A DNA stretch of 25,843 nt, from NCBI GenBank assembly GCA_030040755.1, contig JASHTC010000216.1, positions 1-25,843 on the forward strand, written 5' to 3'. Both the position numbers and the translations under genes were made by a program. Positions 5,821 to 25,843 of this stretch are shown here, in pieces. The notes beneath the pieces are model-generated. The model worked only from the letters and a program-made list of their open reading frames with translations. It did not search any database and had not been told where the DNA came from. The stretch's first letter is position 1, and each line of letters starts with the position of its first letter. Source of the DNA: Thermoplasmata archaeon (lineage in GTDB: Archaea > Thermoplasmatota > Thermoplasmata > Lutacidiplasmatales > UBA184).

Positions 5821-7578
5821 CTACCGGGCGGGCGCGGGCGGCGGGGCGGCGAGCTTCATCTTCGCCAGGTCCTCCCGCGCCTCCTGGAGCGCCTTCTCCG
5901 GCTCCTTGTAGTAGAAGGCGACGAGCTGGCCGACGTCCCGGTGGGTGAACGGGTGCTGCCGGGTCGCCTGCGCCTCCCGGGCCTGGAGGTAGTCGAGCAT
6001 CTCGACGCGCCGCCGGACCTCGCGCTCCATCTCCTTCATCGACCAGTTCTTCGCGAGCGCGACCCGTTCGTAAACGTAGGAGTGGCCGGAGTAGAGGAAG
6101 GTGTCGTCGGCCGGGTTCCACGAGTAGACCGAGTTGGTGATCAGCTCGTTCGTCTCGGGGTCGAGCCCGACGATCTCGGTGAGCGACTGGACGCGCCGGG
6201 TCATCTTCGAGCCGACCTTGACCTGGCGCTGGAGCAGGACGAGGTTGAGCGCGCTGACGAGCGAGCGGGGGAGCGAGATCGGAGGGTTCTCCATCCGGTG
6301 GACCATCGCGCTGACGCTCTCCGCGTGGAAGGTCGTGTAGCAGGTCTTGCCAGTCGCCATCGCCTGGAAGACGATGAACGCCTCGGCCCCTCGGACCTCT
6401 CCGACCATCAGGTACTGGGGGCGCTGGCGGAGGGCCGCCGCGAGCAGGTCGAACATGTCGATCTCCCCCGGGGCCTTGCCGCTGACGAGGTTCTTGGCGC
6501 CGAAGCCGGCGCGGGTCAGCGAGGGGACCCAGTTCTCGTGCGGGAGGTTCAGCTCGCGGGTGTCCTCGATGGAGACGATCTTCATCTGGGGCGGGATGAA
6601 CAGGAGGGTGGCGTTGAGGGTCGTCGTCTTCCCGCTGGCCGTCCCCCCGCAGACCATCATCGACTGCCCGCTCTCGATGGCGATCCAGAGGTAGGCCATC
6701 ATCTCCGGGCTCATCGTCTTGAACTTCAGCAGGTCGACCGGCGTGAACGGGTTGTCCCGGAACCGACGGATGGTGAACGAGCTCCCGCGCTTGGTCACGT
6801 GGACCCCGAGCGTCGCCTGGAGACGGGAGCCGTCCGGGACCGTGGCGTCCAGGATCGGGCTCGCGACGCTGATGTGCTTGCCCGAGCGCTGGGCGAGCCA
6901 GATGACGTAGTCGTCGACCAGCTTCGCGCTCTCGAACTTCAGGTTGGAGCGGATCGAGCCGAACTTCCGGTGGTAGATGTAGAGCGGGATGCCGACCCCG
7001 TCGCACGAGATGTCCTCGACCTCGCTGTCGGTCATCGGGACGTCGACGATCCCGTAACCGATGAAGTCCCGCTCGAGGTAGTAGAGCATCCGGCCCTTGG
7101 TGGTCGGGCCGGGGGAGAGGTCCCACTCCTGGAGCTTCTTGTCGACCATGAGGCGGAGCTCGGTCCGCTTCGTCTGCGGGTCGAGCTCGGGGAGCGGCTC
7201 GAACTCGTCGATCAGGACCGTGTGCATCCGCTCGGTCAGCTCCTTCTCGAGCGGGGAGAGCGGCGGCTCGATGACCTCGTAGAGGTACTCGTTGCGCGCG
7301 TTGTGGTAGGAGACCCGCACGTAGGAGAAGCCGGGGCGGATCGGGGCCAGGTCGATCTCCTTCTGGGCCGGGTCGGGCAGCGGCGGGACGGGGGTGACCT
7401 CCCCCTCCGCGCCCTGGCCCGAGACGCCGAGCCGGGCGAGCCGCACGCCGTGGGGGTCGGAGGAGCCCTTCCGCAGGGCCGCCCCGACGCGCAGGAACGG
7501 GGAGAACGAGCGGGCCGGGCGGCGTCGGGGCCGCTCGAGCGTGACCGTCTCCGGCGGGGGGGCCGCCTCCCCGGCCAT
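5821..7578 (-). CDS. Type IV pilus / type II-IV secretion ATPase (FlaI/PilB/TadA-like), copy 2, 585 aa
   Basis: EDISCDG, Walker A GGTASGKTT, Asp box IEDTREL, Walker B LMVGEVRG, His box TTFHA. Confidence 0.93.
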   Translation of the reverse strand: MAGEAAPPPETVTLERPRRRPARSFSPFLRVGAALRKGSSDPHGVRLARLGVSGQGAEGEVTPVPPLPDPAQKEIDLAPIRPGFSYVRVSYHNARNEYLYEVIEPPLSPLEKELTERMHTVLIDEFEPLPELDPQTKRTELRLMVDKKLQEWDLSPGPTTKGRMLYYLERDFIGYGIVDVPMTDSEVEDISCDGVGIPLYIYHRKFGSIRSNLKFESAKLVDDYVIWLAQRSGKHISVASPILDATVPDGSRLQATLGVHVTKRGSSFTIRRFRDNPFTPVDLLKFKTMSPEMMAYLWIAIESGQSMMVCGGTASGKTTTLNATLLFIPPQMKIVSIEDTRELNLPHENWVPSLTRAGFGAKNLVSGKAPGEIDMFDLLAAALRQRPQYLMVGEVRGAEAFIVFQAMATGKTCYTTFHAESVSAMVHRMENPPISLPRSLVSALNLVLLQRQVKVGSKMTRRVQSLTEIVGLDPETNELITNSVYSWNPADDTFLYSGHSYVYERVALAKNWSMKEMEREVRRRVEMLDYLQAREAQATRQHPFTHRDVGQLVAFYYKEPEKALQEAREDLAKMKLAAPPPAPAR

Positions 7579-7579
7579 C

Positions 7580-8560
7580 TTAGCCCCCCGGAACGGACAG
7601 GATCGGGACGAAGAAGCGCATCGTGACGTACCCCATGATCAGCATGATCGTCGCGTGCTGGAGCCCGTAGGCGATCTTCCCCTTCTGCAGGATGCCGGCC
7701 ATGATGCCGTCCCCGACCGCGTGGGCGATGACCGCCACGAAGAAGGCGAGGAACAGCTGCGGCACCAGCGTGAAGGCGAGCGAGACGCCCCCGGCGGAGC
7801 CGAGGGAGGAGTGCGCGACGCCCGAGCCGGCGGTGATCATGTCGGGCAGGAAGATCGCCGCCATGATGTAGATCGTGACGAGGAAGACCCCGAACGAGAT
7901 GTAGATGACCGTGAGGTAGGTGAGCATCTGGATCTCCCGTCCCTTCACCTGGAGCTGCGCCTCCCGGGTGTCGTGGGCGACCATCGTCAGCACGTCCGCG
8001 ACGTTCCCGCCGGCCTCGTTGGCCCGGGTGACGATGGAGACGACCCGCTGGACGAGCGGGGTCGGGACCCGTTCCTCGAAGAGGCGCAGCGCGGTGGCGA
8101 CGGGGACCCCCCACTCGAGCTGGCTGGCCATCTTCTTGATCTCGTCCGTCAGGAGGCCGTAGCGGCCCTTGCTCGCCACGACGATGGCATCCGGCAGCGT
8201 CATGCCGAAGCGCCCGGCCTCGGCGACGTCCCGCAGGAAGTCGGGCAGCCGGTCCTCGATCTTCTCGATCCGGCTGAGCTGCTGGCTCTTCAGGAACCCG
8301 TAGGGGGCCATGATGGCGATCAGGCCGAAGACGATCCAGTCGAGCGCCGCGTCGAAGCCGGTCGTGACGCCCGCGCGGAAGACGAACGTGATGTCGCCGG
8401 CCCAGGTGAGGCCAGCGATGATCCACAGGACCACCGCGACCGCGGCGCCGACGACCAGCACGACCTCGGCGCTCCCCAGCCCCTCCTCGGTCTCGGCGGC
8501 CGTCGGCGCGGCGAGCGCCTTGACCTTCCGAACCGATGCGGGCGCGTTCGCTGTCGCCAT
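7580..8560 (-). CDS. TadC/FlaJ-like (T2SS F domain) membrane platform protein, 326 aa
   Basis: IEDRLPDFLRDVAEAGRFGMTL...YGLLTDEIKKMASQLEWG, EAGGNVADVL, multiple hydrophobic segments, operon context. Confidence 0.9.
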   Translation of the reverse strand: MATANAPASVRKVKALAAPTAAETEEGLGSAEVVLVVGAAVAVVLWIIAGLTWAGDITFVFRAGVTTGFDAALDWIVFGLIAIMAPYGFLKSQQLSRIEKIEDRLPDFLRDVAEAGRFGMTLPDAIVVASKGRYGLLTDEIKKMASQLEWGVPVATALRLFEERVPTPLVQRVVSIVTRANEAGGNVADVLTMVAHDTREAQLQVKGREIQMLTYLTVIYISFGVFLVTIYIMAAIFLPDMITAGSGVAHSSLGSAGGVSLAFTLVPQLFLAFFVAVIAHAVGDGIMAGILQKGKIAYGLQHATIMLIMGYVTMRFFVPILSVPGG

Positions 8561-8561
8561 G

Positions 8562-9551
8562 TTACACCATATCCGCCGTGAGCGTGTACATGAAGAAGAT
8601 GAACCCGAACTGGGCGATCGGGATCAGGAGGCCCACGATCGCCCAGAGGATGTCGATCATGAACGTCCCGCCGCCGCCGATGACGGCGAAGATCGCGATG
8701 ATGATGACCAGGAAGAGCGGGAAGGCGACCACGACGGTGACGAACGTCTCGGCCATCAGCCCGAGGGTCTCGACGCGGGAGAGCATCTCGAGCTTGTTCT
8801 CCGCCTCGTACTGCTCGCTCTTGAGCAGGAAGTAGGGCTTCAGCTGGCCCCCGCTGGTCGCGGTCGTCACGACGCCCTGCAGGAAGTCCTGGAACCGCTT
8901 GGAGGGGCTCCGCTGAGCCCCCGTGCGGATCGCGGTCAGGATGTCGACCCCGAGCAGCTCAGTGTCCCGGGTGATCCAGGCGGCCTCCTCGGCGACCTCG
9001 CCGTAGATCTTCTGGCGCGCCAGCTCCTTGAAGATCTGGTCGACGTTGACGTCGGCGGACGCCATCGCGCTGACGAAGCTCATCGCCGGGCTGATCTTCC
9101 GGTCGATCTTGCGTCCGCGCGCCTTCGCGGTGGACGCCGGGGTCCCCGGCATCCCGAAGAGGGTCCCCACGAACGCGAGCACGGGGAGGCCGACCGCGAG
9201 GAGAATCCCGACGAACAGGGGGAGGCCGACGATCTCGACCATGAAGAAGGCGGCGCCGACCCCCGCGACGGCCATCCCGATCGCGGCGACGATGCTGGTC
9301 CCGTAGACCATCGCCATGTACTCGTCGGCGCGCAGCCGGATGTGGGCCTTCAGCAGGTTCTCCTCGAGGGTCGGGTCGGGGGGCCGGGCGAGGACCCGCT
9401 GACGGAACGTCTTCCAGCACCAGCGCTGGAACGGGGTGAGGGTCGAGTGGGTCGGCTGCTCGCCGCGCTTGAGGCGGACCGTGCGGGCGCCCTCGGGAAG
9501 GGCGACGCCGGCTCGGCTCGCGGGCGCGTTCGAGGTCGGGGTCGCGGGCAT
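8562..9551 (-). CDS. TadC/FlaJ-like (T2SS F domain) membrane platform protein, 329 aa
   Basis: LLKAHIRLRADEY, IYGEVAEE...RDTELLGVDILTAI, SPSKRFQDFLQG...SGG; N- and C-terminal transmembrane segments. Confidence 0.9.
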   Translation of the reverse strand: MPATPTSNAPASRAGVALPEGARTVRLKRGEQPTHSTLTPFQRWCWKTFRQRVLARPPDPTLEENLLKAHIRLRADEYMAMVYGTSIVAAIGMAVAGVGAAFFMVEIVGLPLFVGILLAVGLPVLAFVGTLFGMPGTPASTAKARGRKIDRKISPAMSFVSAMASADVNVDQIFKELARQKIYGEVAEEAAWITRDTELLGVDILTAIRTGAQRSPSKRFQDFLQGVVTTATSGGQLKPYFLLKSEQYEAENKLEMLSRVETLGLMAETFVTVVVAFPLFLVIIIAIFAVIGGGGTFMIDILWAIVGLLIPIAQFGFIFFMYTLTADMV

Positions 9552-9554
9552 CCG

Positions 9555-11210
9555 CTAGACCCCCTTCGGGAACGGAGTCCCCGCCTGGACGCGCGTCATG
9601 ACCTCGGTCGGGTCCTTGTAGTACTGCGCCACGATCCGCCACAGCTGGCGGTAGTCGGTGATCTTGAACTTCACGAGATAGCGGATCACGTCGACCCGGC
9701 GCTGGAACTCGGCGTCCATCTCGTCGGTCGTGAAGTTCCGGATCTCGGTGATCTTGTCGAACAGGAACGAGTGGCCCTTGAAGGTGAACCCATCGGTCGC
9801 CGGGTCCCACTCGTAGACCGTGTTGGTGATCAGCTCGTTGGTCTCGGGCTCGAACCCGACGATCTCGAGCACCTGCTTCAGCCGCCGGACCACCCCCTTC
9901 TCGGTCCGGGCCTGGATCTGGATGATGACGTTGTTCAGCGCCGAGAGCAGGATCCGCGGGGTGTTGATCGGCGGGTTCTCGAGGCGGTTGACCATCGACT
10001 TCACGCTGTCGGCGTGCATGGTCGAGTAGGTCGTGTGGCCGGTGGCCATCGCCTGGAACATCGTGTACGTCTCCTTGCCGCGGACCTCCCCCACGATGAT
10101 GTAGTTCGGCCGCTGCCGCAGCGCGGCCCGCACGAGGTCGAACATGTCGACCTCGCCCGCGGTCTTCCCGTCCGGCCCGCGGTCCCCGGTCCCGGACCGG
10201 GTGGCGCCGGGGATCCAGTTCTCGTGCGGGAGGTTGACCTCCCGCGTGTCCTCGATCGAGACGATCTTGGAGGTCGGGGGGATGAAGAGCGCGATGGCGT
10301 TCAGCGTGCTGGTCTTGCCCGCGGCGGGGCCCCCGCAGATGATCACCGACTCGCCCTGCTCGGCCGCGAGCCAGAAGTAGGCGACCATCTCCTCGTTCGC
10401 GCTGCCCATCAGGACGAGGTCGACCGGGGTGAACGGCCGCTCCTTGAACCGCCGGATCGTGAAGCTCGCGCCGCGCGTCGTGATCTCGCGCGCGTACGTC
10501 GCCTGGACCCGGTGCCCCTCGGGCGTGGTGCCGTCCAGGATCGGGGAGGAGACGCTGACCGACTTGCTGCAGCGCTGGCCCAGCATGACGATGAACGAGT
10601 TGAGGGAGTCCTCGTCGGCGAAGACGACGTTCGTCTTCATCGACTCGTACTTCCCGTGGAAGATGAAGATCGGTACGTCCACCCCGTCGCACGAGATGTC
10701 CTCGACCTCCGGGTCGAGGATCAGGGAGTCGACCGGGCCGTAGCCCACGAAGTCGCGCAGGAGGTAGTAGATGATCCGCTCGGTCGAGAGGGGGGAGAGC
10801 GGGACGTCCCGGCTGCGGAAGTACTCCTCCGCCTCCCCGCGGAGGTAGGAGCGCTTGTCCGCGGTCGAGAGGTTGGCCGTCTCGCTGCCGAGGATCTGGG
10901 TCATGGTCGTCTTCAGGTGGGCGACCAGCCCCTTCTCGTGCGCGGAGAGCTGGGGCTCGATGATCTCGTAGAGGTACTCCTTGTTCCGGTCGTTGTAGGA
11001 GACCCGCGAGTAGGAGTAGGGCGGGTTGACCGCCTGCACCTCGAGCTCGCGCATCGTGGGCTCGGCGAGCGGCGGAAGGGCCGTGATGAACGTCCCGGGG
11101 ACGTCCGTCGTCGGGAGGGCGGACTGCGCGCTGGTGTCGAGCGGGTTCGGCTCCACCGCCGGGGTGCGGGGGATCTTGACGCGGAACGACGAGCCGCCGG
11201 ACGCGGTCAC
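9555..11210 (-). CDS. Type IV pilus / type II-IV secretion ATPase (FlaI/PilB/TadA-like), copy 1, 551 aa
   Basis: EDISCDG, Walker A GGPAAGKTS, IEDTREV, Walker B IIVGEVRG, His box STMHA. Confidence 0.93.
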   Translation of the reverse strand: MTASGGSSFRVKIPRTPAVEPNPLDTSAQSALPTTDVPGTFITALPPLAEPTMRELEVQAVNPPYSYSRVSYNDRNKEYLYEIIEPQLSAHEKGLVAHLKTTMTQILGSETANLSTADKRSYLRGEAEEYFRSRDVPLSPLSTERIIYYLLRDFVGYGPVDSLILDPEVEDISCDGVDVPIFIFHGKYESMKTNVVFADEDSLNSFIVMLGQRCSKSVSVSSPILDGTTPEGHRVQATYAREITTRGASFTIRRFKERPFTPVDLVLMGSANEEMVAYFWLAAEQGESVIICGGPAAGKTSTLNAIALFIPPTSKIVSIEDTREVNLPHENWIPGATRSGTGDRGPDGKTAGEVDMFDLVRAALRQRPNYIIVGEVRGKETYTMFQAMATGHTTYSTMHADSVKSMVNRLENPPINTPRILLSALNNVIIQIQARTEKGVVRRLKQVLEIVGFEPETNELITNTVYEWDPATDGFTFKGHSFLFDKITEIRNFTTDEMDAEFQRRVDVIRYLVKFKITDYRQLWRIVAQYYKDPTEVMTRVQAGTPFPKGV

Positions 11211-11214
11211 GGGC

Positions 11215-12288
11215 TCACGTCCCCCCCACGCCGGTGCTGACCTGCACGCCGGCGTAATCGTACTGGACGTAGTTCACGTTCGCCACGGTGAGGGTGATCA
11301 CGGTCGTCTCGCCGCTCCCGGACGAGCACGCCGCCGTGGTGGGGGGGGTGGTGGACGTGAGGTTGGTGCCGGGGCTCAGTTGCGTATAGCTCCAGTCGGT
11401 GCTCGCCAGCCCGCTCACCGCCATCGTCTGCAGGAGGTACGACGTCCAGGCGCACGGGTACTGGGTCCCAATCTTGAAGGTGAAGGTGAACGGCATCGGG
11501 GTGTTGTTGGTCGACCCGGGGGCGACCGCGCCCCGGGACGTGACCGGCTGGCTGTACCGCAGGTGGCTGTAGAGGTCCTGGCTGCCCAGCCCGACGATCG
11601 AGGACTCGTTCCCGTACATCTGGAGCATGCTCGTGGAGATCGTCGTGTTGCCGGCGGCGGTGTGGGTGATGTTGAACGGCGGGTTGACGTCCATGTCCTC
11701 GTAGCCCCCGGGCTGCCACTGGATGACGGCGTCGTCCTCGTAGAAGAACGTCACCGGCGTGTAGTACCGGTTCGGCAGGACCATCTCGAGGACGCCGGTG
11801 GGGATCCGCTGGCTGTAGCCTCCCGAGCCGCCCGGCCCGTTCTGGAGGCTGATGTTCGCGAACAGGCAGGCGGCGGGGTTGACCGGCTGGCCGATCCCCT
11901 TGGCGAAGCCGGGGTCGGTCACGTTGAACCCTTTGGCACACCCCGAGGGGAGGAACTCGAGGATCCCCTCGGTCGGCTGGGCGAGGAGGGGGACGCTGCC
12001 CGAGCTGAGCGTGAACGGCACCCCGACGGTCTGGGGTCCCCCGAGCTCGTACTGGGAGTCCACCGCGGACTTGAAGCTGGAGAAGGCGAGGTCGGCCTGG
12101 GAGGTGAACGCGGCCTCGTTCTCGGTCATCCACAAGGGGAGGTACTGCGTCACGAACACCCCGAACAGCGTGAAGAAGACCAGGAGGGCGAGGAGGGTGC
12201 CGATGACGGCGACGACCCCCCGCCGATTGCGGAGCCGGCGACGGGCCCGGCGAGACCAGCGGCTCGTGCGATGACTCGGCTCCCCCAT
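11215..12288 (-). CDS. Large pilin-like surface protein with class III signal peptide, 357 aa
   Basis: Basic leader ending RNRRG|VVAVIGTLLALLVFFTLFG (prepilin-peptidase-type site after G24); Thr/Ser/Gly/Asn-rich body with seven N-X-S/T sequons and four Cys; first gene of the pilus operon. Confidence 0.8.
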   Translation of the reverse strand: MGEPSHRTSRWSRRARRRLRNRRGVVAVIGTLLALLVFFTLFGVFVTQYLPLWMTENEAAFTSQADLAFSSFKSAVDSQYELGGPQTVGVPFTLSSGSVPLLAQPTEGILEFLPSGCAKGFNVTDPGFAKGIGQPVNPAACLFANISLQNGPGGSGGYSQRIPTGVLEMVLPNRYYTPVTFFYEDDAVIQWQPGGYEDMDVNPPFNITHTAAGNTTISTSMLQMYGNESSIVGLGSQDLYSHLRYSQPVTSRGAVAPGSTNNTPMPFTFTFKIGTQYPCAWTSYLLQTMAVSGLASTDWSYTQLSPGTNLTSTTPPTTAACSSGSGETTVITLTVANVNYVQYDYAGVQVSTGVGGT

Positions 12289-12300
12289 CCGACAGACCGG

Positions 12301-12324
12301 CTGTAGCCTCGCGGGAGGTTACAG
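12301..12324 (-). promoter_or_regulatory. Putative 5'-UTR hairpin of the pilus operon
   Basis: Minus-strand CTGTAACCTC-CCGC-GAGGCTACAG: 10-bp stem with one mismatch, 12 nt before the pilin ATG. Confidence 0.45.
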
Positions 12325-23043: not shown

Positions 23044-23104
23044 CCCGGGACCGGGCAATCCCCCGAGCCGATAGGTTAATCGCGGCGCGCGGGTGGCGCG
23101 GTCT

Positions 23105-24082
23105 GTGCGGCTCGGGGCGCACATCGGCACCGCCGACGGCCTGGTCGAGGCGGTCCGTCAGGGTCGCGCGATCGGGTGCGCGTCGATCCAGATCTTCTCG
23201 AAGAGCCCCCAGATGTGGGCGGGGCCCCCGATCCAGCCCGACGCGGCGACGGCGTTTCGGGAGGCGGTGCGGGTCGAGCCCCGTCTCGCCACCGCCGTGC
23301 ATCACGGCTACCTGATCAATCTCGGCTCCCCGAAGGCGTTCATGCTCCGCCGCTCGCGCACCGCCTTCCGCGACGAGATCGGGCGGGCCGAGCTCCTCGG
23401 CGTCGAGGGCCTGATCTTCCACCCGGGTGCCCACCTCGGGTCGGGTGCCGCGACCGGGCTGCGCGTCATCGCGGAGAGCCTCCGCGGCGCCCTCGAGGCG
23501 TATCCCGAGGGGCAGGTTCGGCTCCTGCTCGAGAACGCGGCGGGCCAGGGGACCGCCCTCTGCTCGACCCTCGAGGAGCTCCAGACGGTCCTGGGCGAGG
23601 TCGACCGTCCCGACCGGCTCGGCGTCACGCTCGACACCTGTCACCTGTTCGCCGCGGGGGTCGACCTCCGCACGGAGGGGGGGTACGGTACCCTCTGCGA
23701 CCGGATCGACGGCACGATCGGGCGCTCCTCCGTGCGTGCCTTCCACCTGAACGACGCGAAGGCGGAGCTCGGCTCCCACCTCGACCGCCACGAGAACATC
23801 GGCAAGGGCCAGATCGGGCTGGCCGGGTTCTATTCCCTCGTCCGGGACCCCCGTTGGACGACGACCCCCGGCTTTCTCGAGACACCGCTCGACGACCGGG
23901 GGTACGCCCGGTACGCCGAGGACCTGGTGGCGCTGCGTTCGCTCCTCACCGGCGAGCGGCCGGCGCCTTCGCTCCCGCCCGCGGCCCCGGCGCCCACGAC
24001 GCCCTCCTCCCGCCCGTCGCGCAAGCGACGCGCCGCCCCCCGAGGCGCTCCCCCGTCGCCCGCGGTCCGAACGCTCAAATAG
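23105..24082 (+). CDS. nfo: Endonuclease IV (AP endonuclease 2)
   Basis: LGAH, HHGYLINL, FHPG, LENAAGQG, LDTCH, FHLND, DRHENIG, LETP (zinc ligand set). Start placed at GTG 23105, about 25 nt after TTAAT (23076-23080); the ORF track uses 23093. Confidence 0.93.
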   Translation: MRLGAHIGTADGLVEAVRQGRAIGCASIQIFSKSPQMWAGPPIQPDAATAFREAVRVEPRLATAVHHGYLINLGSPKAFMLRRSRTAFRDEIGRAELLGVEGLIFHPGAHLGSGAATGLRVIAESLRGALEAYPEGQVRLLLENAAGQGTALCSTLEELQTVLGEVDRPDRLGVTLDTCHLFAAGVDLRTEGGYGTLCDRIDGTIGRSSVRAFHLNDAKAELGSHLDRHENIGKGQIGLAGFYSLVRDPRWTTTPGFLETPLDDRGYARYAEDLVALRSLLTGERPAPSLPPAAPAPTTPSSRPSRKRRAAPRGAPPSPAVRTLK

Positions 24083-24107: not shown

Positions 24108-24959
24108 ATGGCGGACGAGGTGTCGGCCGAGACGTTCCGGTCGCTCGAGGCGAGGGCGCTCGAGATGCGGCGCGACATCCTGCGGATGACCCACGCCGCG
24201 GGGAGCGGCCATCCGGGCGGGAGCCTCTCGGTCTGCGACCTGGTGAACGCCCTCGTCTCCCAGGAGCTCCGGATCGACCCGGCGCGCCCCGACTGGCCGG
24301 AGCGGGACCGGCTGGTGCTGTCGAAGGCTCACGCGGCGCCGGCGCTCTATTCGGCCCTCGCCCTCCGGGGATTCTTTCCCCGGGACGAGCTCCTGACGCT
24401 GCGCCAGCTCGGGAGCCGGCTCCAGGGCTTCGCCGACCGGAACAAGCTTCCGTACGTCGAGGCGACCAGCGGTTGCCCCGGCCAAGGGATCGGCATGGCG
24501 GTCGGGATGGCGCTCGCCGCGCGCCTCGGACCCCACCCTTTCCGGACCTACGCGATCCTCGGGGACGGCGAGTGCCAGGCGGGCCCGACGTGGGAGGCCC
24601 TGATGGCCGGCGGGCACTACCGGCTCGCCCACCTGGTAGTGATCCTAGACCGGAACCTCTACGAGACCGACGGTCCGACCGAGTCGATCCTGGGGGTCGA
24701 GCCGATCGCCGACAAGTTCCGGGCGTTCCGCTACCACGCGCTCGAGATCGACGGACACGACTACCGCCAGATCCTCGCCGCGTTCGCCGAGGCCCGTCGG
24801 ACCGCCGACCGCCCCACCGCCATCATCGCGCGCACGGTCAAGGGCAAGGGGGTCTCGTTCATGGAAGGGAGCCCCGCCTACCACGCCCAGCCGCCGACCA
24901 CCGCCGAGCTCGAGCGCGCGCTCGCGGAGCTCGGCGCTCCGCCGGGAGTCGCCCGATGA
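24108..24959 (+). CDS. Transketolase-like N-terminal (ThDP-binding) subunit with active-site substitutions, 283 aa
   Basis: SGHPGGSLS, RDRLVLSKAH, GDG-X-N motif (GDGECQAG...DRN), TVKGKGVSFME. Several normally invariant residues differ (see findings). Confidence 0.9.
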   Translation: MADEVSAETFRSLEARALEMRRDILRMTHAAGSGHPGGSLSVCDLVNALVSQELRIDPARPDWPERDRLVLSKAHAAPALYSALALRGFFPRDELLTLRQLGSRLQGFADRNKLPYVEATSGCPGQGIGMAVGMALAARLGPHPFRTYAILGDGECQAGPTWEALMAGGHYRLAHLVVILDRNLYETDGPTESILGVEPIADKFRAFRYHALEIDGHDYRQILAAFAEARRTADRPTAIIARTVKGKGVSFMEGSPAYHAQPPTTAELERALAELGAPPGVAR

Positions 24960-25843
24960 GGCCGGGGGGCAGCGCAGAGAGCCTGCGGGACGCCTACGGG
25001 AGGACGCTCCTCGAGCTTGGGGAGAAGGACCCGACCCTCGTCGTCCTGGACGCCGACCGCTCCGGCTCGACCCGGACGATGCCGTTCGGCCAGAAGTACC
25101 CGGACCGGTTCTTCAACGTCGGGGAGATGGCCCCCACGATGATGTCCATCGCCGCCGGGCTCGCGCTCTCCGGACGGGTCGCCTACGCGAGCACCTTCGC
25201 GGTCTGGGCGGCCGGCCAGGCCTACCACCACGTGCGGCAATCGATCTGCTACAACCGCGCCAACGTCAAGATCGTCGCGACCCACGGCGGTCTCCTTACC
25301 GGCGGGGACGGGGGCCCCCACCAGATGGTGGAGGACATCGGGCTGATGCGGGGCCTCCCGGGGATGACCGTCATCGTGCCGGCGGACGCCCCGACGACCC
25401 GGGCCGCCACCCTCGCGGTCCACGGGCACCCCGGGCCCGCCTACGTGCGACTGAGCCGCGAGAGCCTGCCGGTCGTGACCGACGGGTCGTTCCAGCTCGG
25501 GAAGGCCGCCGAGCTCCGAGCCGGCAGCGACCTCACGGTCGTGGCGGTCGGCGCCCTGGTCGCCCGCGCGCTCGCGGTCGCCGAGGAGCTGGCCCGGGTC
25601 GGGGTCTCGACCCGGGTGCTCGACTTCGCGTCCGTCAAGCCGTTCGACGAACCGGCCCTCCTGCGGGCCGCCCGCGACACCGGCGCGATCCTGGTGCTCG
25701 AGGAGCATTCGGTCCTCACCGGGGTCGGCGCGCTCGTCGCGTCCACCACGTCGGAAAACTATCCGGTGCCCGTGCGTCGCGTCGGCGTCCCGGACGTCTT
25801 CGGCGAGTCCGGTGAGCCGTGGGCCCTGCTCGACCGCTACGGG
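24956..25843 (+). CDS. Transketolase-like C-terminal (pyrimidine-binding + C-terminal domain) subunit, truncated at window edge; absent from ORF track
   Basis: Translated by hand from ATG 24956 (ATGA overlap): MRPGGSAESLRDAYG...DADRSGST...RFFNVGEMAPTMM...THGGLLTGGDGGPHQ...YVRLSR...VKPFD...EEHS...GVPDVFGESG; 296 open codons to the edge. Confidence 0.92.
   Translation, partial: MRPGGSAESLRDAYGRTLLELGEKDPTLVVLDADRSGSTRTMPFGQKYPDRFFNVGEMAPTMMSIAAGLALSGRVAYASTFAVWAAGQAYHHVRQSICYNRANVKIVATHGGLLTGGDGGPHQMVEDIGLMRGLPGMTVIVPADAPTTRAATLAVHGHPGPAYVRLSRESLPVVTDGSFQLGKAAELRAGSDLTVVAVGALVARALAVAEELARVGVSTRVLDFASVKPFDEPALLRAARDTGAILVLEEHSVLTGVGALVASTTSENYPVPVRRVGVPDVFGESGEPWALLDRYG

What the first reader, a model, noticed from the sequence alone, without database searches (positions are those of the whole stretch)
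24429..25324. Substrate channel of the transketolase-like pair remodelled while the sugar-phosphate clamp is kept
Seen in sequence: the invariant LQGHP motif is LQGFA (H100 equivalent is Phe108, 24429-24431), and ADL becomes ADR in subunit B (L382 equivalent is Arg35). The usual YDQIR is YHHVR and GEDG is GGDG. The phosphate-binding residues (R11, S38, H110 and the YVRLSR arginine; R358/S385/H461/R520 equivalents) and the hydroxyl-binding H35 (subunit A), D118 and H122 (H26/D469/H473 equivalents) remain. Established knowledge: H100/H103 contacts the C1-hydroxyl of the ketol donor and intermediate. Inference: the donor may lack a C1-OH or carry a carboxylate (new Arg), while a phosphorylated sugar is still recognised, i.e. 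a non-standard carboligase or a sugar-phosphate-binding protein.
Basis: partly seen in the sequence, partly recalled or inferred. Interest (0 to 1): 0.66.

Follow-up and report, generated by a model that had tools for sequence, protein, structure and literature searches.

The report
Transketolase pair losing its active site
This two-gene archaeal transketolase has recently lost the residues that hold and activate its vitamin-B1 cofactor, almost certainly because the same genome carries a second, intact single-gene transketolase. It is best read as an enzyme caught part-way through dying, not as a new kind of catalyst.

Summary
Subunit A (24108-24959) has Phe108 where 119/119 nearest homologues have His. 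Subunit B (24956-25843, cut by the contig end) has Arg35 in place of Leu, plus YHHVR and GGDG. Logan contigs from three peat samples carry the same codons. GGDG is common in this clade and in other split transketolases, so it is not special.

The finding misses the larger change. Five of the seven residues that contact the ThDP rings in the solved Carboxydothermus split transketolase changed on this gene's own terminal branch: L35R, V57E, E59A (the activating Glu), F84W and L124P. All eight diphosphate/metal ligands and all four sugar-phosphate clamp residues are kept.

On that branch dN/dS is 0.85 inside the catalytic motifs and 0.28 outside. The sister genome's values are 0.00 and 0.10.

The genome also holds an intact fused tkt, followed by a tal-pgi fusion and a 6PGDH gene. 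Across the 150 genomes of the genus, split pairs stay intact where they are the only transketolase. They degenerate repeatedly where a fused one coexists, and end in deletion.

Verdict: a catalytically disabled, redundant transketolase pair, either a pseudoenzyme or a relic. A non-standard carboligase is unlikely. A sugar-phosphate binding role is not excluded.

The parts
24108..24959 (+). Subunit A (283 aa): Transketolase_N / PP domain of a split transketolase-like pair
   Evidence: PF00456, 167 bits. 274 bits to 6YAK chain N. 85% identical to its ortholog in the sister genome G001.
24956..25843 (+). Subunit B (296 aa present of about 317): Transket_pyr plus Transketolase_C. It starts in an ATGA overlap with the stop of A and is cut by the contig end.
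   Evidence: PF02779, 105 bits, and PF02780, 100 bits. 307 bits to 6YAJ. Full-length homologues are 317 aa. The window is the whole contig C138.
24429..24431 (+). Phe108 (TTC), at the E. coli His100 position that binds the donor C1-OH
   Evidence: His in 119/119 nearest homologues and 56/56 sole-copy genus sequences. CAC to TTC needs two base changes.
24477..24479 (+). Pro124, at the ChTK Leu119N position (contacts the thiazolium ring and hydrogen-bonds the aminopyrimidine)
   Evidence: Leu in 56/56. Contact role from PMC7661550.
24327..24329 (+). Ala74 in SKAHA (clade SKGHA), next to the diphosphate-binding His75
   Evidence: Gly is at least 98% conserved in the sole-copy set.
25058..25060 (+). 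Arg35, at the E. coli Leu382 / ChTK Leu31C position (thiazolium contact)
   Evidence: Leu in 56/56. Arg in 0/150 representatives.
25124..25132 (+). Glu57-Met58-Ala59 (clade Val-Met-Glu). Ala59 replaces the ThDP-activating Glu (E. coli E411 / ChTK Glu55C). Glu57 replaces the thiazolium contact (ChTK Ile53C).
   Evidence: Glu is present in 138/150 representatives, and position 57 is never Glu among them.
25205..25207 (+). Trp84, at the ChTK Phe80C position (stacks on the aminopyrimidine ring)
   Evidence: Phe in 56/56 and 137/150.
25226..25231 (+). His91-His92 in YHHVR (clade YN[FAV]VR; canonical Y[DE]QIR)
25301..25321 (+). GGDGGPH. Asp118 and His122 are kept. Thr121-to-Pro is window-specific. 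The first Gly (in place of the Glu of GEDG) is clade-wide.
25457..25459 (+). Arg168 (E. coli R520 position). Kept, as are Arg11, Ser38 and His110 of the sugar-phosphate clamp.
23093..24082 (+). Deoxyribonuclease IV (nfo), the conserved upstream neighbour of the pair
   Evidence: TIGR00587, 244 bits. The order nfo - tkA - tkB - fsa/talC - DUF357 is conserved in relatives.

Best explanation
The two genes are this lineage's ancestral archaeal split transketolase. In relatives the locus reads nfo - tkA - tkB - fsa/talC transaldolase - DUF357. The genome also carries an intact fused transketolase followed by a tal-pgi fusion and a 6-phosphogluconate dehydrogenase gene, so the split pair is no longer needed for catalysis.

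Since splitting from its nearest sequenced relative, the pair has lost selection on its catalytic site. The pocket for the two ThDP rings has been rebuilt: L35R, V57E, E59A, F84W, L124P. The His that binds the donor C1-OH is now Phe. The protein therefore most likely cannot hold ThDP in its active conformation or activate it, and so is not a working transketolase or carboligase.

The fold, the diphosphate-Mg site and the sugar-phosphate clamp are still kept, and the rest of the protein remains under purifying selection. It is best seen as a folded but catalytically dead intermediate (a pseudoenzyme). It belongs to a displacement series that elsewhere in the genus ends in heavy divergence and then deletion.

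Shown: the substitutions, their position on the tree, the rate pattern, the second operon, and the genus-wide association. Inferred: loss of ThDP binding and catalysis, and that redundancy is the cause.
For: 1. Residue mapping. Five of seven ThDP ring contacts listed for the solved ChTK (PMC7661550) changed on the G000 terminal branch. None of eight diphosphate/metal ligands changed, none of four phosphate-clamp residues, and one of five substrate His/Asp residues. Hypergeometric P = 7e-5 against the branch-wide rate, and about 0.013 against a neutral rate.

2. Phylogeny. G000 is sister to G001, which is canonical and has only the split form, and sits on a much longer branch. Nonsynonymous:synonymous counts are 65:52 for G000, 22:61 for G001 and 26:56 for G098 (Fisher P = 5e-5).

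3. Partitioned rates. dN/dS is 0.85 in 93 catalytic-motif codons and 0.28 elsewhere on the G000 branch, against 0.00 and 0.10 on the G001 branch. Of 49 amino-acid changes, 18 fall in the motifs; close sole-copy branches have 0-1 there.

4. A second, intact transketolase. C98:7156-9168 encodes 671 aa, scores 838 bits on TIGR00232 (cut-off 682), and has all canonical motifs. TAL-PGI and 6PGDH genes follow it.

5. Genus survey of 150 genomes. 85 have the split form and 82 the fused form. At 17 catalytic residues chosen beforehand, 56 of 58 sole-copy pairs are fully intact; the two exceptions come from MAGs under 70% complete. In contrast, 15 of 18 pairs coexisting with a fused transketolase carry substitutions. 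These arose on several separate branches.

6. End states in fused-only genomes: tkA deleted (G021, G064), both genes deleted (G002), and tal reduced to a remnant as well (G005).

7. The codons are present in contigs from three samples.
Against: - No biochemical data exist; loss of ThDP binding is inferred from contacts in a homologue about 50% identical.
- Both reading frames are intact, with no gaps against G001 over the 283 and 296 aligned residues. dN/dS outside the motifs is 0.28, so this is not a plain pseudogene and may have a selected role.
- Ring-pocket changes exceed even the neutral expectation (P about 0.013). That fits directional remodelling better than pure drift.
- An older degenerate clade keeps open frames with pairwise dN/dS of 0.20-0.35, which hints that dead pairs can be retained.
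- G000 is a 71%-complete MAG with 231 contigs. That C98 and C138 come from one cell rests on binning and on the genus-wide pattern.
- Three genomes (G008, G100, G138) have both forms with the split pair intact, so coexistence does not force decay.
Confidence: 0.68

Rival explanations
1. Retained pseudoenzyme with a selected non-catalytic role. After the fused transketolase took over, the pair was kept as a cofactor-free protein that still binds a sugar phosphate, and perhaps a diphosphate-Mg ligand. The ThDP ring pocket would be filled by Arg35, Glu57 and Trp84. It might act as a sensor, regulator or partner of the conserved downstream transaldolase.
For: - Intact frames and dN/dS of 0.28 outside the motifs.
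- Three of the five ring-pocket changes are to larger or charged side chains, and their number exceeds the neutral expectation.
- The diphosphate/metal ligands (8 of 8) and the phosphate clamp (4 of 4) are kept.
- An independent lineage, P0027, repeats V57E together with loss of Glu59.
- The older degenerate clade and the very divergent G063/G148/G093 pairs keep open frames, with dN/dS of 0.20-0.47.
- The adjacent short tal stays 86-91% identical beside them.
Against: - The window's variant is a singleton at the 90% cluster level among 5.8 billion proteins, so it is young with no conserved lineage behind it.
- Other degenerate lineages lose different residues (the phosphate clamp and His122, not the ring pocket), so there is no common new site.
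- Fused-only genomes delete the genes.
- Open frames are weak evidence at 94% GC3, where only 2.3% of single-base changes create a stop.
Confidence: 0.22
2. Still an active, non-standard ThDP carboligase. Phe108 would make it DXP-synthase-like, taking a donor without a C1-OH such as pyruvate. Arg35 would bind a carboxylate. Glu57 or another route would replace the canonical Glu, as in glyoxylate carboligase (recalled from memory), which works without it.
For: - The H100 position is Phe in DXP synthases, and H100F/L raises pyruvate use in a Geobacillus transketolase (PMC7661550).
- The GDG...N motif, the diphosphate ligands, His35, His75, His259, Asp118, His122 and the phosphate clamp are all kept.
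- The V57E change coupled to loss of Glu59 occurs twice independently.
Against: - All side chains that contact the rings, apart from the backbone Gly and a Thr that is clade-wide, have changed. These include the activating Glu and the Leu whose replacement by Pro removes a backbone NH.
- The catalytic motifs evolve at a near-neutral rate rather than under new constraint.
- No conserved lineage shares this residue set.
- NCBIfam scores remain transketolase-like, not DXS-like.
Confidence: 0.07
3. Artefact: a consensus or chimeric MAG sequence, or sequencing errors, created the odd residues.
For: The genome is a fragmented MAG (231 contigs, 71% complete). Related strains coexist in the same samples, shown by many contigs at 90-95% identity.
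Against: - Contigs assembled independently from three samples match the window with 0-2 differences, none at the critical codons, across F108/P124 (X1, X2) and R35/E57/A59/W84/H91-92 (X1, X2, X3).
- Random errors would not concentrate 18 of 49 changes in catalytic motifs while preserving both frames.
Confidence: 0.03

Closest known systems
Split ('split-gene') transketolase of Carboxydothermus hydrogenoformans (PDB 6YAK/6YAJ; PMC7661550), and archaeal split transketolases generally
   Same: Same two-chain architecture (PP domain chain, and Pyr plus C-terminal domain chain). Best solved match, at 274 and 307 bits. Same diphosphate/metal ligands and the same phosphate-clamp and His/Asp substrate residues, except H100.
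   Different: The ThDP ring contacts Leu31C, Ile53C, Glu55C, Phe80C and Leu119N are Arg, Glu, Ala, Trp and Pro here, and the H100 position is Phe. ChTK is an active enzyme. This pair is predicted to be inactive.
Canonical split transketolase of the same genus (e.g. G001, G098), encoded in the order nfo - tkA - tkB - fsa/talC - DUF357
   Same: Orthologous by position and by tree (sister to G001; 85% and 91% identity). Same clade-wide peculiarities: GDGECQAG, G[GAP]DG and AGQAYN.VR.
   Different: 15 substitutions at sites at least 98% conserved in 56 sole-copy sequences, which themselves carry 0-6, median 0. Catalytic-motif dN/dS is 0.85 against 0.00.
Human transketolase-like protein 1 (TKTL1) and the delta-38 model of it
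   Same: A transketolase paralogue that coexists with a working transketolase and lacks residues needed for cofactor binding. The delta-38 variant of human transketolase, made as a TKTL1 model, shows no enzymatic activity (title of PMC3485151, listed).
   Different: TKTL1 lost a 38-residue segment by deletion in a fused eukaryotic enzyme, and its activity is disputed (PMC6334435 argues it is a genuine transketolase, by its title). Here the loss is by point substitutions in a two-chain archaeal enzyme.
1-deoxy-D-xylulose-5-phosphate synthase (DXS)
   Same: Phe at the transketolase H100 position (PMC7661550). Homologous domains, with weak NCBIfam hits of 62 and 136 bits.
   Different: DXS is a single chain and keeps the activating Glu. 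The window proteins score far better as transketolase (306 and 236 bits on NF004559).

Membership tests
Transketolase (EC 2.2.1.1), split archaeal/bacterial type | Domain architecture: Transketolase_N on one chain, Transket_pyr plus Transketolase_C on the next | tested here: met
   Pfam hits of 167, 105 and 100 bits. Best solved match is 6YAK/6YAJ. The AlphaFold model of B has pTM 0.76.
Transketolase (EC 2.2.1.1), split archaeal/bacterial type | ThDP diphosphate-Mg site (GDG...N motif; ChTK Lys68, His70, Asp148, Gly149, Glu150, Asn178, Lys240) | tested here: met
   All are present and identical to the sole-copy relatives.
Transketolase (EC 2.2.1.1), split archaeal/bacterial type | Pyr-domain Glu that protonates N1' of ThDP (E. 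coli E411 / yeast E418 / ChTK Glu55C) | tested here: not met
   Ala59 (GCC, 25130-25132). It is Glu in 56/56 sole-copy genus sequences and 138/150 representatives.
Transketolase (EC 2.2.1.1), split archaeal/bacterial type | Hydrophobic and stacking contacts that hold the thiazolium and aminopyrimidine rings (ChTK Leu31C, Ile53C, Phe80C, Leu119N) | tested here: not met
   These are Arg35, Glu57, Trp84 and Pro124. All four are invariant Leu/Val/Phe/Leu in sole-copy relatives.
Transketolase (EC 2.2.1.1), split archaeal/bacterial type | His that binds the donor C1-OH (E. coli H100 / yeast H103) | tested here: not met
   Phe108; His in 119/119 nearest homologues.
Transketolase (EC 2.2.1.1), split archaeal/bacterial type | Sugar-phosphate clamp (E. 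coli R358, S385, H461, R520) and H26, H261, D469, H473 | tested here: met
   Arg11, Ser38, His110 and Arg168 in B; His35 and His259 in A; Asp118 and His122 in B.
Transketolase (EC 2.2.1.1), split archaeal/bacterial type | Transketolase activity and ThDP binding | not testable with these tools
   Needs recombinant protein.
Transketolase (EC 2.2.1.1), split archaeal/bacterial type | Operon partner transaldolase (fsa/talC type) downstream | tested here: inconclusive
   The contig ends inside tkB. No short tal was found elsewhere in this 71%-complete MAG. It is present in G001, G098 and 20 other relatives.
DXP synthase | Single chain with Phe at the transketolase H100 position AND the activating Glu | tested here: not met
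   Phe is present, but the Glu is absent and there are two chains. The dxs model scores 62 and 136 bits against a cut-off of 466.
Pseudoenzyme (catalytically dead homologue retained as a folded protein) | Loss of catalytic residues with continued purifying selection on the rest of the protein | tested here: met
   dN/dS is 0.85 in the motifs and 0.28 outside them on the terminal branch. A single switch to neutrality cannot fit both values. Whether there is a selected function remains open.

The most novel reading that the evidence does not exclude
The dead split-transketolase pair is not junk. It would be a cofactor-free protein whose former ThDP ring pocket is plugged by Arg35, Glu57 and Trp84, and which still binds sugar phosphates. 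It would be kept as a sensor or as a partner of the strongly conserved neighbouring transaldolase. The same fate would have been reached repeatedly in this Thermoplasmata genus whenever a fused transketolase arrives, giving a natural, replicated series of enzyme-to-pseudoenzyme conversion.
Probability: 0.2. Interest if true: 0.6.

Novelty: new variant of a known kind. Interest (0 to 1): 0.4.

Why it matters
Annotation pipelines will call both genes 'transketolase'. Metabolic reconstructions of these peat Thermoplasmata would then count a pentose-phosphate enzyme that most likely does not work, while the real one sits on another contig.

The genus also offers a replicated natural series. It runs from an intact pair, through release of the active site with the fold retained, to heavy divergence, loss of one subunit, and full deletion. 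The series covers about 150 genomes, and the stages can be dated against synonymous change. That makes it a useful system for studying how enzymes die, or become pseudoenzymes, after displacement by a paralogue. It can also show which parts of a ThDP site go first.

Tried and rejected
- **Genes beyond the right edge.** Not possible: the window is the entire contig. I read the syntenic region in G001 and G098 instead.
- **Transaldolase decaying with the pair.** My early reading, from G012 and G020, was that the downstream transaldolase decays along with the transketolase pair. This was wrong. tblastn shows the short tal at 86-91% identity beside nearly all degenerate pairs. G012 (50%), G002 and G005 are the exceptions.
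- **G000 and G012 sharing ancestry.** They share L35R, L124P, T121P, N91H and HG-to-HA, so I considered common descent. The tree places G000 with canonical G001, so these are parallel changes. Most are AT-to-GC single-base changes, and the G000 branch has an AT-to-GC excess (32:21, against 7:27 in G001). GC pressure under relaxed constraint is therefore a sufficient explanation.
- **Expression.** No RNA holder was listed for this stretch.
- **Arg35-Glu57 proximity.** The structure model of B (pLDDT 75, low at residues 85-87 and 111-122) returns no coordinates, so a salt bridge in the thiazolium pocket could not be tested.
- **Literature.** Searches found no description of dead archaeal split transketolases. 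The library is limited, so this is weak evidence of novelty.
- **Recalled, not checked.** Near-loss of yeast transketolase activity in E418A, and glyoxylate carboligase working without the canonical Glu, are recalled from memory. For E418A only the reference was found.
- **Minus-strand ORFs** across the region. These are the usual by-product of 73% GC and were not pursued.
Full report
**What is there**

The finding lies in two overlapping genes on the + strand. Subunit A runs 24108-24959 and encodes 283 aa. Subunit B starts at 24956, in an ATGA overlap with the stop of A, and runs off the window end with 296 aa present.

Pfam finds Transketolase_N in A, and Transket_pyr plus Transketolase_C in B. 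NCBIfam's best model for both is a transketolase equivalog.

The closest solved structure is the split transketolase of Carboxydothermus hydrogenoformans, 6YAK/6YAJ, at 274 and 307 bits.

The window is an entire contig (C138) of a 1.53-Mb MAG that is 71% complete and has 231 contigs, so nothing lies beyond the right edge. Full-length B homologues are 317 aa. The nearest homologues are labelled Thermoplasmata archaeon. The runs that hold the sequence are peat metagenomes.

**Checking the observation**

- Changed: Phe108 (TTC, 24429-24431), Arg35, YHHVR and GGDG.
- Retained: Arg11, Ser38, His110 and Arg168 in B; His35 in A; Asp118 and His122 in B.

His at position 108 is found in 119 of 119 nearest homologues. 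Leu35 is found in 112 of 120.

Logan contigs from three samples of one peat study cover all the critical codons and show no difference at them. The sequence is therefore not an assembly artefact.

Two items are not special:
- G[GAP]DG replaces GEDG throughout this clade and in related orders. Only 55 of 150 cluster representatives have the Glu.
- The clade normally has YN[FAV]VR, so only the two His residues are new.

**What the finding leaves out**

The alignment to 6YAJ shows that GIAEQ reads GEMAP here. The paper on that structure lists the ThDP contacts (PMC7661550):
- Thiazolium ring: Leu31C, Ile53C, Leu119N, Ile182N.
- Aminopyrimidine ring: Glu55C, Gly117N, Leu119N, plus stacking by Phe80C.
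- Diphosphate and metal: Lys68, His70, Asp148, Gly149, Glu150, Asn178, Leu180, Lys240.

I fixed the numbering from the printed alignments. Chain index minus 29 gives the paper's number for both chains. The contacts then map as follows:

| ChTK residue | Here |
|---|---|
| Leu31C | Arg35 |
| Ile53C | Glu57 |
| Glu55C | Ala59 |
| Phe80C | Trp84 |
| Leu119N | Pro124 |
| Gly117N | Gly122 (kept) |
| Ile182N | Thr187 (clade-wide) |

Five of seven ring contacts are replaced. All eight diphosphate/metal ligands, all four phosphate-clamp residues, and four of five substrate His/Asp residues are unchanged. So the 'ADL to ADR' change belongs to the cofactor pocket and not to a donor-carboxylate site.

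An earlier first-stage note on the same stretch (e1-5330568) reached the same view of the aminopyrimidine machinery. I had noted the Glu loss before reading it.

**Where and when the changes arose**

In a tree of concatenated A and B from 76 genomes of the genus, G000 is sister to G001 and sits on a much longer terminal branch. G001 is 85% and 91% identical, canonical, has only the split form, and is 93% complete.

Changes were polarised with G098 and G156 as outgroups:

| Branch | Nonsynonymous : synonymous |
|---|---|
| G000 | 65 : 52 |
| G001 | 22 : 61 |
| G098 | 26 : 56 |

Fisher's test gives P = 5e-5 for G000 against G001.

G000 carries 15 substitutions at sites at least 98% conserved in 56 sole-copy sequences. 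Those sequences themselves carry 0-6, with a median of 0.

The rates were then split by position:

| Branch | dN/dS, 93 catalytic-motif codons | dN/dS, elsewhere |
|---|---|---|
| G000 | 0.85 | 0.28 |
| G001 | 0.00 | 0.10 |

A single switch to full neutrality cannot fit both G000 numbers. The catalytic site would need to be neutral for about 85% of the branch, but the rest of the gene for only about 20%. So the protein has persisted folded but catalytically unconstrained for most of the branch.

Five of seven ring contacts also exceeds a neutral per-codon expectation of about 0.25 (P about 0.013). This is a modest, post hoc hint of pocket-filling compensation.

**Why: a second transketolase**

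The same MAG encodes a 671-aa fused transketolase on contig C98. It has every canonical motif and scores 838 bits on TIGR00232, above the 682 cut-off. A transaldolase-PGI fusion and a 6-phosphogluconate dehydrogenase gene follow it.

In the genus of 150 genomes, 85 have a split A gene and 82 have a fused transketolase. At first 21 had both, then 23 once fragments in G057 and G097 were counted.

I scored 17 catalytic or binding residues chosen beforehand from the literature:
- 56 of 58 pairs in genomes without a detected fused transketolase are fully intact.
- The two exceptions, G070 and G089, are MAGs under 70% complete. They nest inside a degenerate clade whose other members all have the fused gene.
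- 15 of 18 pairs that coexist with a fused gene carry substitutions.
- Reclassifying G097 makes these counts 55 of 57 and 15 of 19.

The hits lie on several separate branches: G000; G085 (also His-to-Phe); G105; G121/G096; G011; the clade from G143 to G020; G093; and G063/G148.

These genomes are related, so I give no formal P value. G019, G148 and G149 are unpublished. G148 is one of the three most degenerate pairs, G149 is a coexisting case with a truncated B, and G019 is a canonical sole-copy case. No conclusion depends on them.

**The locus and its end states**

In G001 and G098 the order is nfo - tkA - tkB - fsa/talC-type transaldolase (215 aa; TIGR00875, 300 bits) - DUF357. The degenerate pairs sit in the same place, so they are the ancestral locus diverging in situ and not a separate paralogue.

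The short transaldolase stays 86-91% identical even beside pairs that have lost the GDG motif (G063, G148, G093). G012 is the exception at 50%.

In fused-only genomes the locus has decayed further:
- G021 and G064 retain only a diverged tkB, 52-54% identical, with tkA deleted.
- G002 has lost both genes and has a damaged tal.
- G005 keeps only a 56-aa tal remnant.

**Is it junk or retained?**

The evidence is mixed.

For retention:
- Both frames are intact and gap-free against G001.
- dN/dS outside the motifs is 0.28.
- Pairs within the older degenerate clade give 0.20-0.35, against 0.04-0.21 for canonical pairs. The very divergent trio gives 0.41-0.47.
- P0027, which is not sister to the window protein, independently combines V57E with loss of Glu59 (GEMGS).

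Against retention:
- The window's variant is a singleton at the 90% clustering level.
- Different lineages destroy different parts of the site.
- Deletion is the observed end state.
- At 94% GC3 only 2.3% of single-base changes create a stop, so an open frame is weak evidence.

His-to-Phe at H100 is the DXP-synthase state, and H100F/L raises pyruvate use in a Geobacillus transketolase (PMC7661550). The chemical reasoning is therefore sound.

A working carboligase, however, needs ThDP held in its active conformation and activated. The activating Glu is gone. The ring-contact Leu is now Pro, which removes a backbone NH. The stacking Phe and both remaining hydrophobic thiazolium contacts have also changed. 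I put an active non-standard carboligase at about 7%.

**Verdict**

This is a real and statistically unusual pattern. Its best explanation is loss of catalytic constraint on a redundant split transketolase. The result is a folded, probably ThDP-incompetent pseudoenzyme or relic, one stage in a genus-wide displacement of split by fused transketolase.

The structure model of B (pTM 0.76; the loop at 55-59 precedes a helix starting at residue 60) confirms the fold but could not test side-chain geometry.

Noticed in passing
G000 contig C98:7156-13447 (loci L007, L115): A second pentose-phosphate cluster: a fused transketolase (671 aa), a transaldolase-phosphoglucose isomerase fusion (TAL_FSA plus PGI in one 991-aa open frame), and a 6-phosphogluconate dehydrogenase-like gene.
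   Followed up: partly
L116-L135, L110-L113 (downstream of tkB in 24 genus genomes): The short fsa/talC-type transaldolase and DUF357 stay highly conserved (tal 86-98% identical to G098) even beside transketolase pairs that have lost nearly every catalytic residue. Only G012 has a divergent tal, at 50%.
   Followed up: partly
L136 (G021), L137 (G064), L138 (G002), L139 (G005): Fused-only genomes show later stages at the same locus. In G021 and G064, nfo abuts a diverged tkB-like frame with tkA deleted. G002 has lost both transketolase genes and has an internally deleted tal. G005 keeps only a 56-aa tal remnant.
   Followed up: partly
Proteins P0027, P0058, P0099 (metagenome homologues of B): Other lineages have lost the activating Glu: GEMGS, GAMAP and GVMDQ. 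P0027 repeats the V57E change independently of the window protein.
   Followed up: partly
window 25097 (first base of Tyr48 codon of B): A T-to-C variant (Tyr48 to His) appears in contigs from two of the peat samples (X2, X3). This is population-level variation in the same gene.
   Followed up: no
window 24108-25843 versus G001, G098: The G000 branch shows an excess of AT-to-GC changes (32:21, against 7:27 and 4:30 on the sister branches). Gene GC is 72.9% against 70.8%. This may explain the parallel L-to-P, L-to-R, T-to-P and N-to-H changes seen in unrelated degenerate copies.
   Followed up: partly
L013 (G010), L103 (G155), L106 (G161): The transketolase genes appear frameshifted in assemblies with very few contigs (probably long-read). 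These are more likely homopolymer errors than real pseudogenes.
   Followed up: no
window 5824-12318, minus strand: A cluster with two T2SSE-type ATPases and two T2SSF-type membrane proteins (a type IV pilus or archaellum-like assembly system), plus a 367-aa ORF with no Pfam hit.
   Followed up: no
Proteins P0241, P0242, P0248, P0254, P0311, P0341, P0357, P0378: Eight of the 150 nearest 50%-identity cluster representatives of subunit B lack the activating Glu, and most lack other catalytic residues too. Dead tkB-like proteins therefore form several sequence clusters of their own.
   Followed up: no
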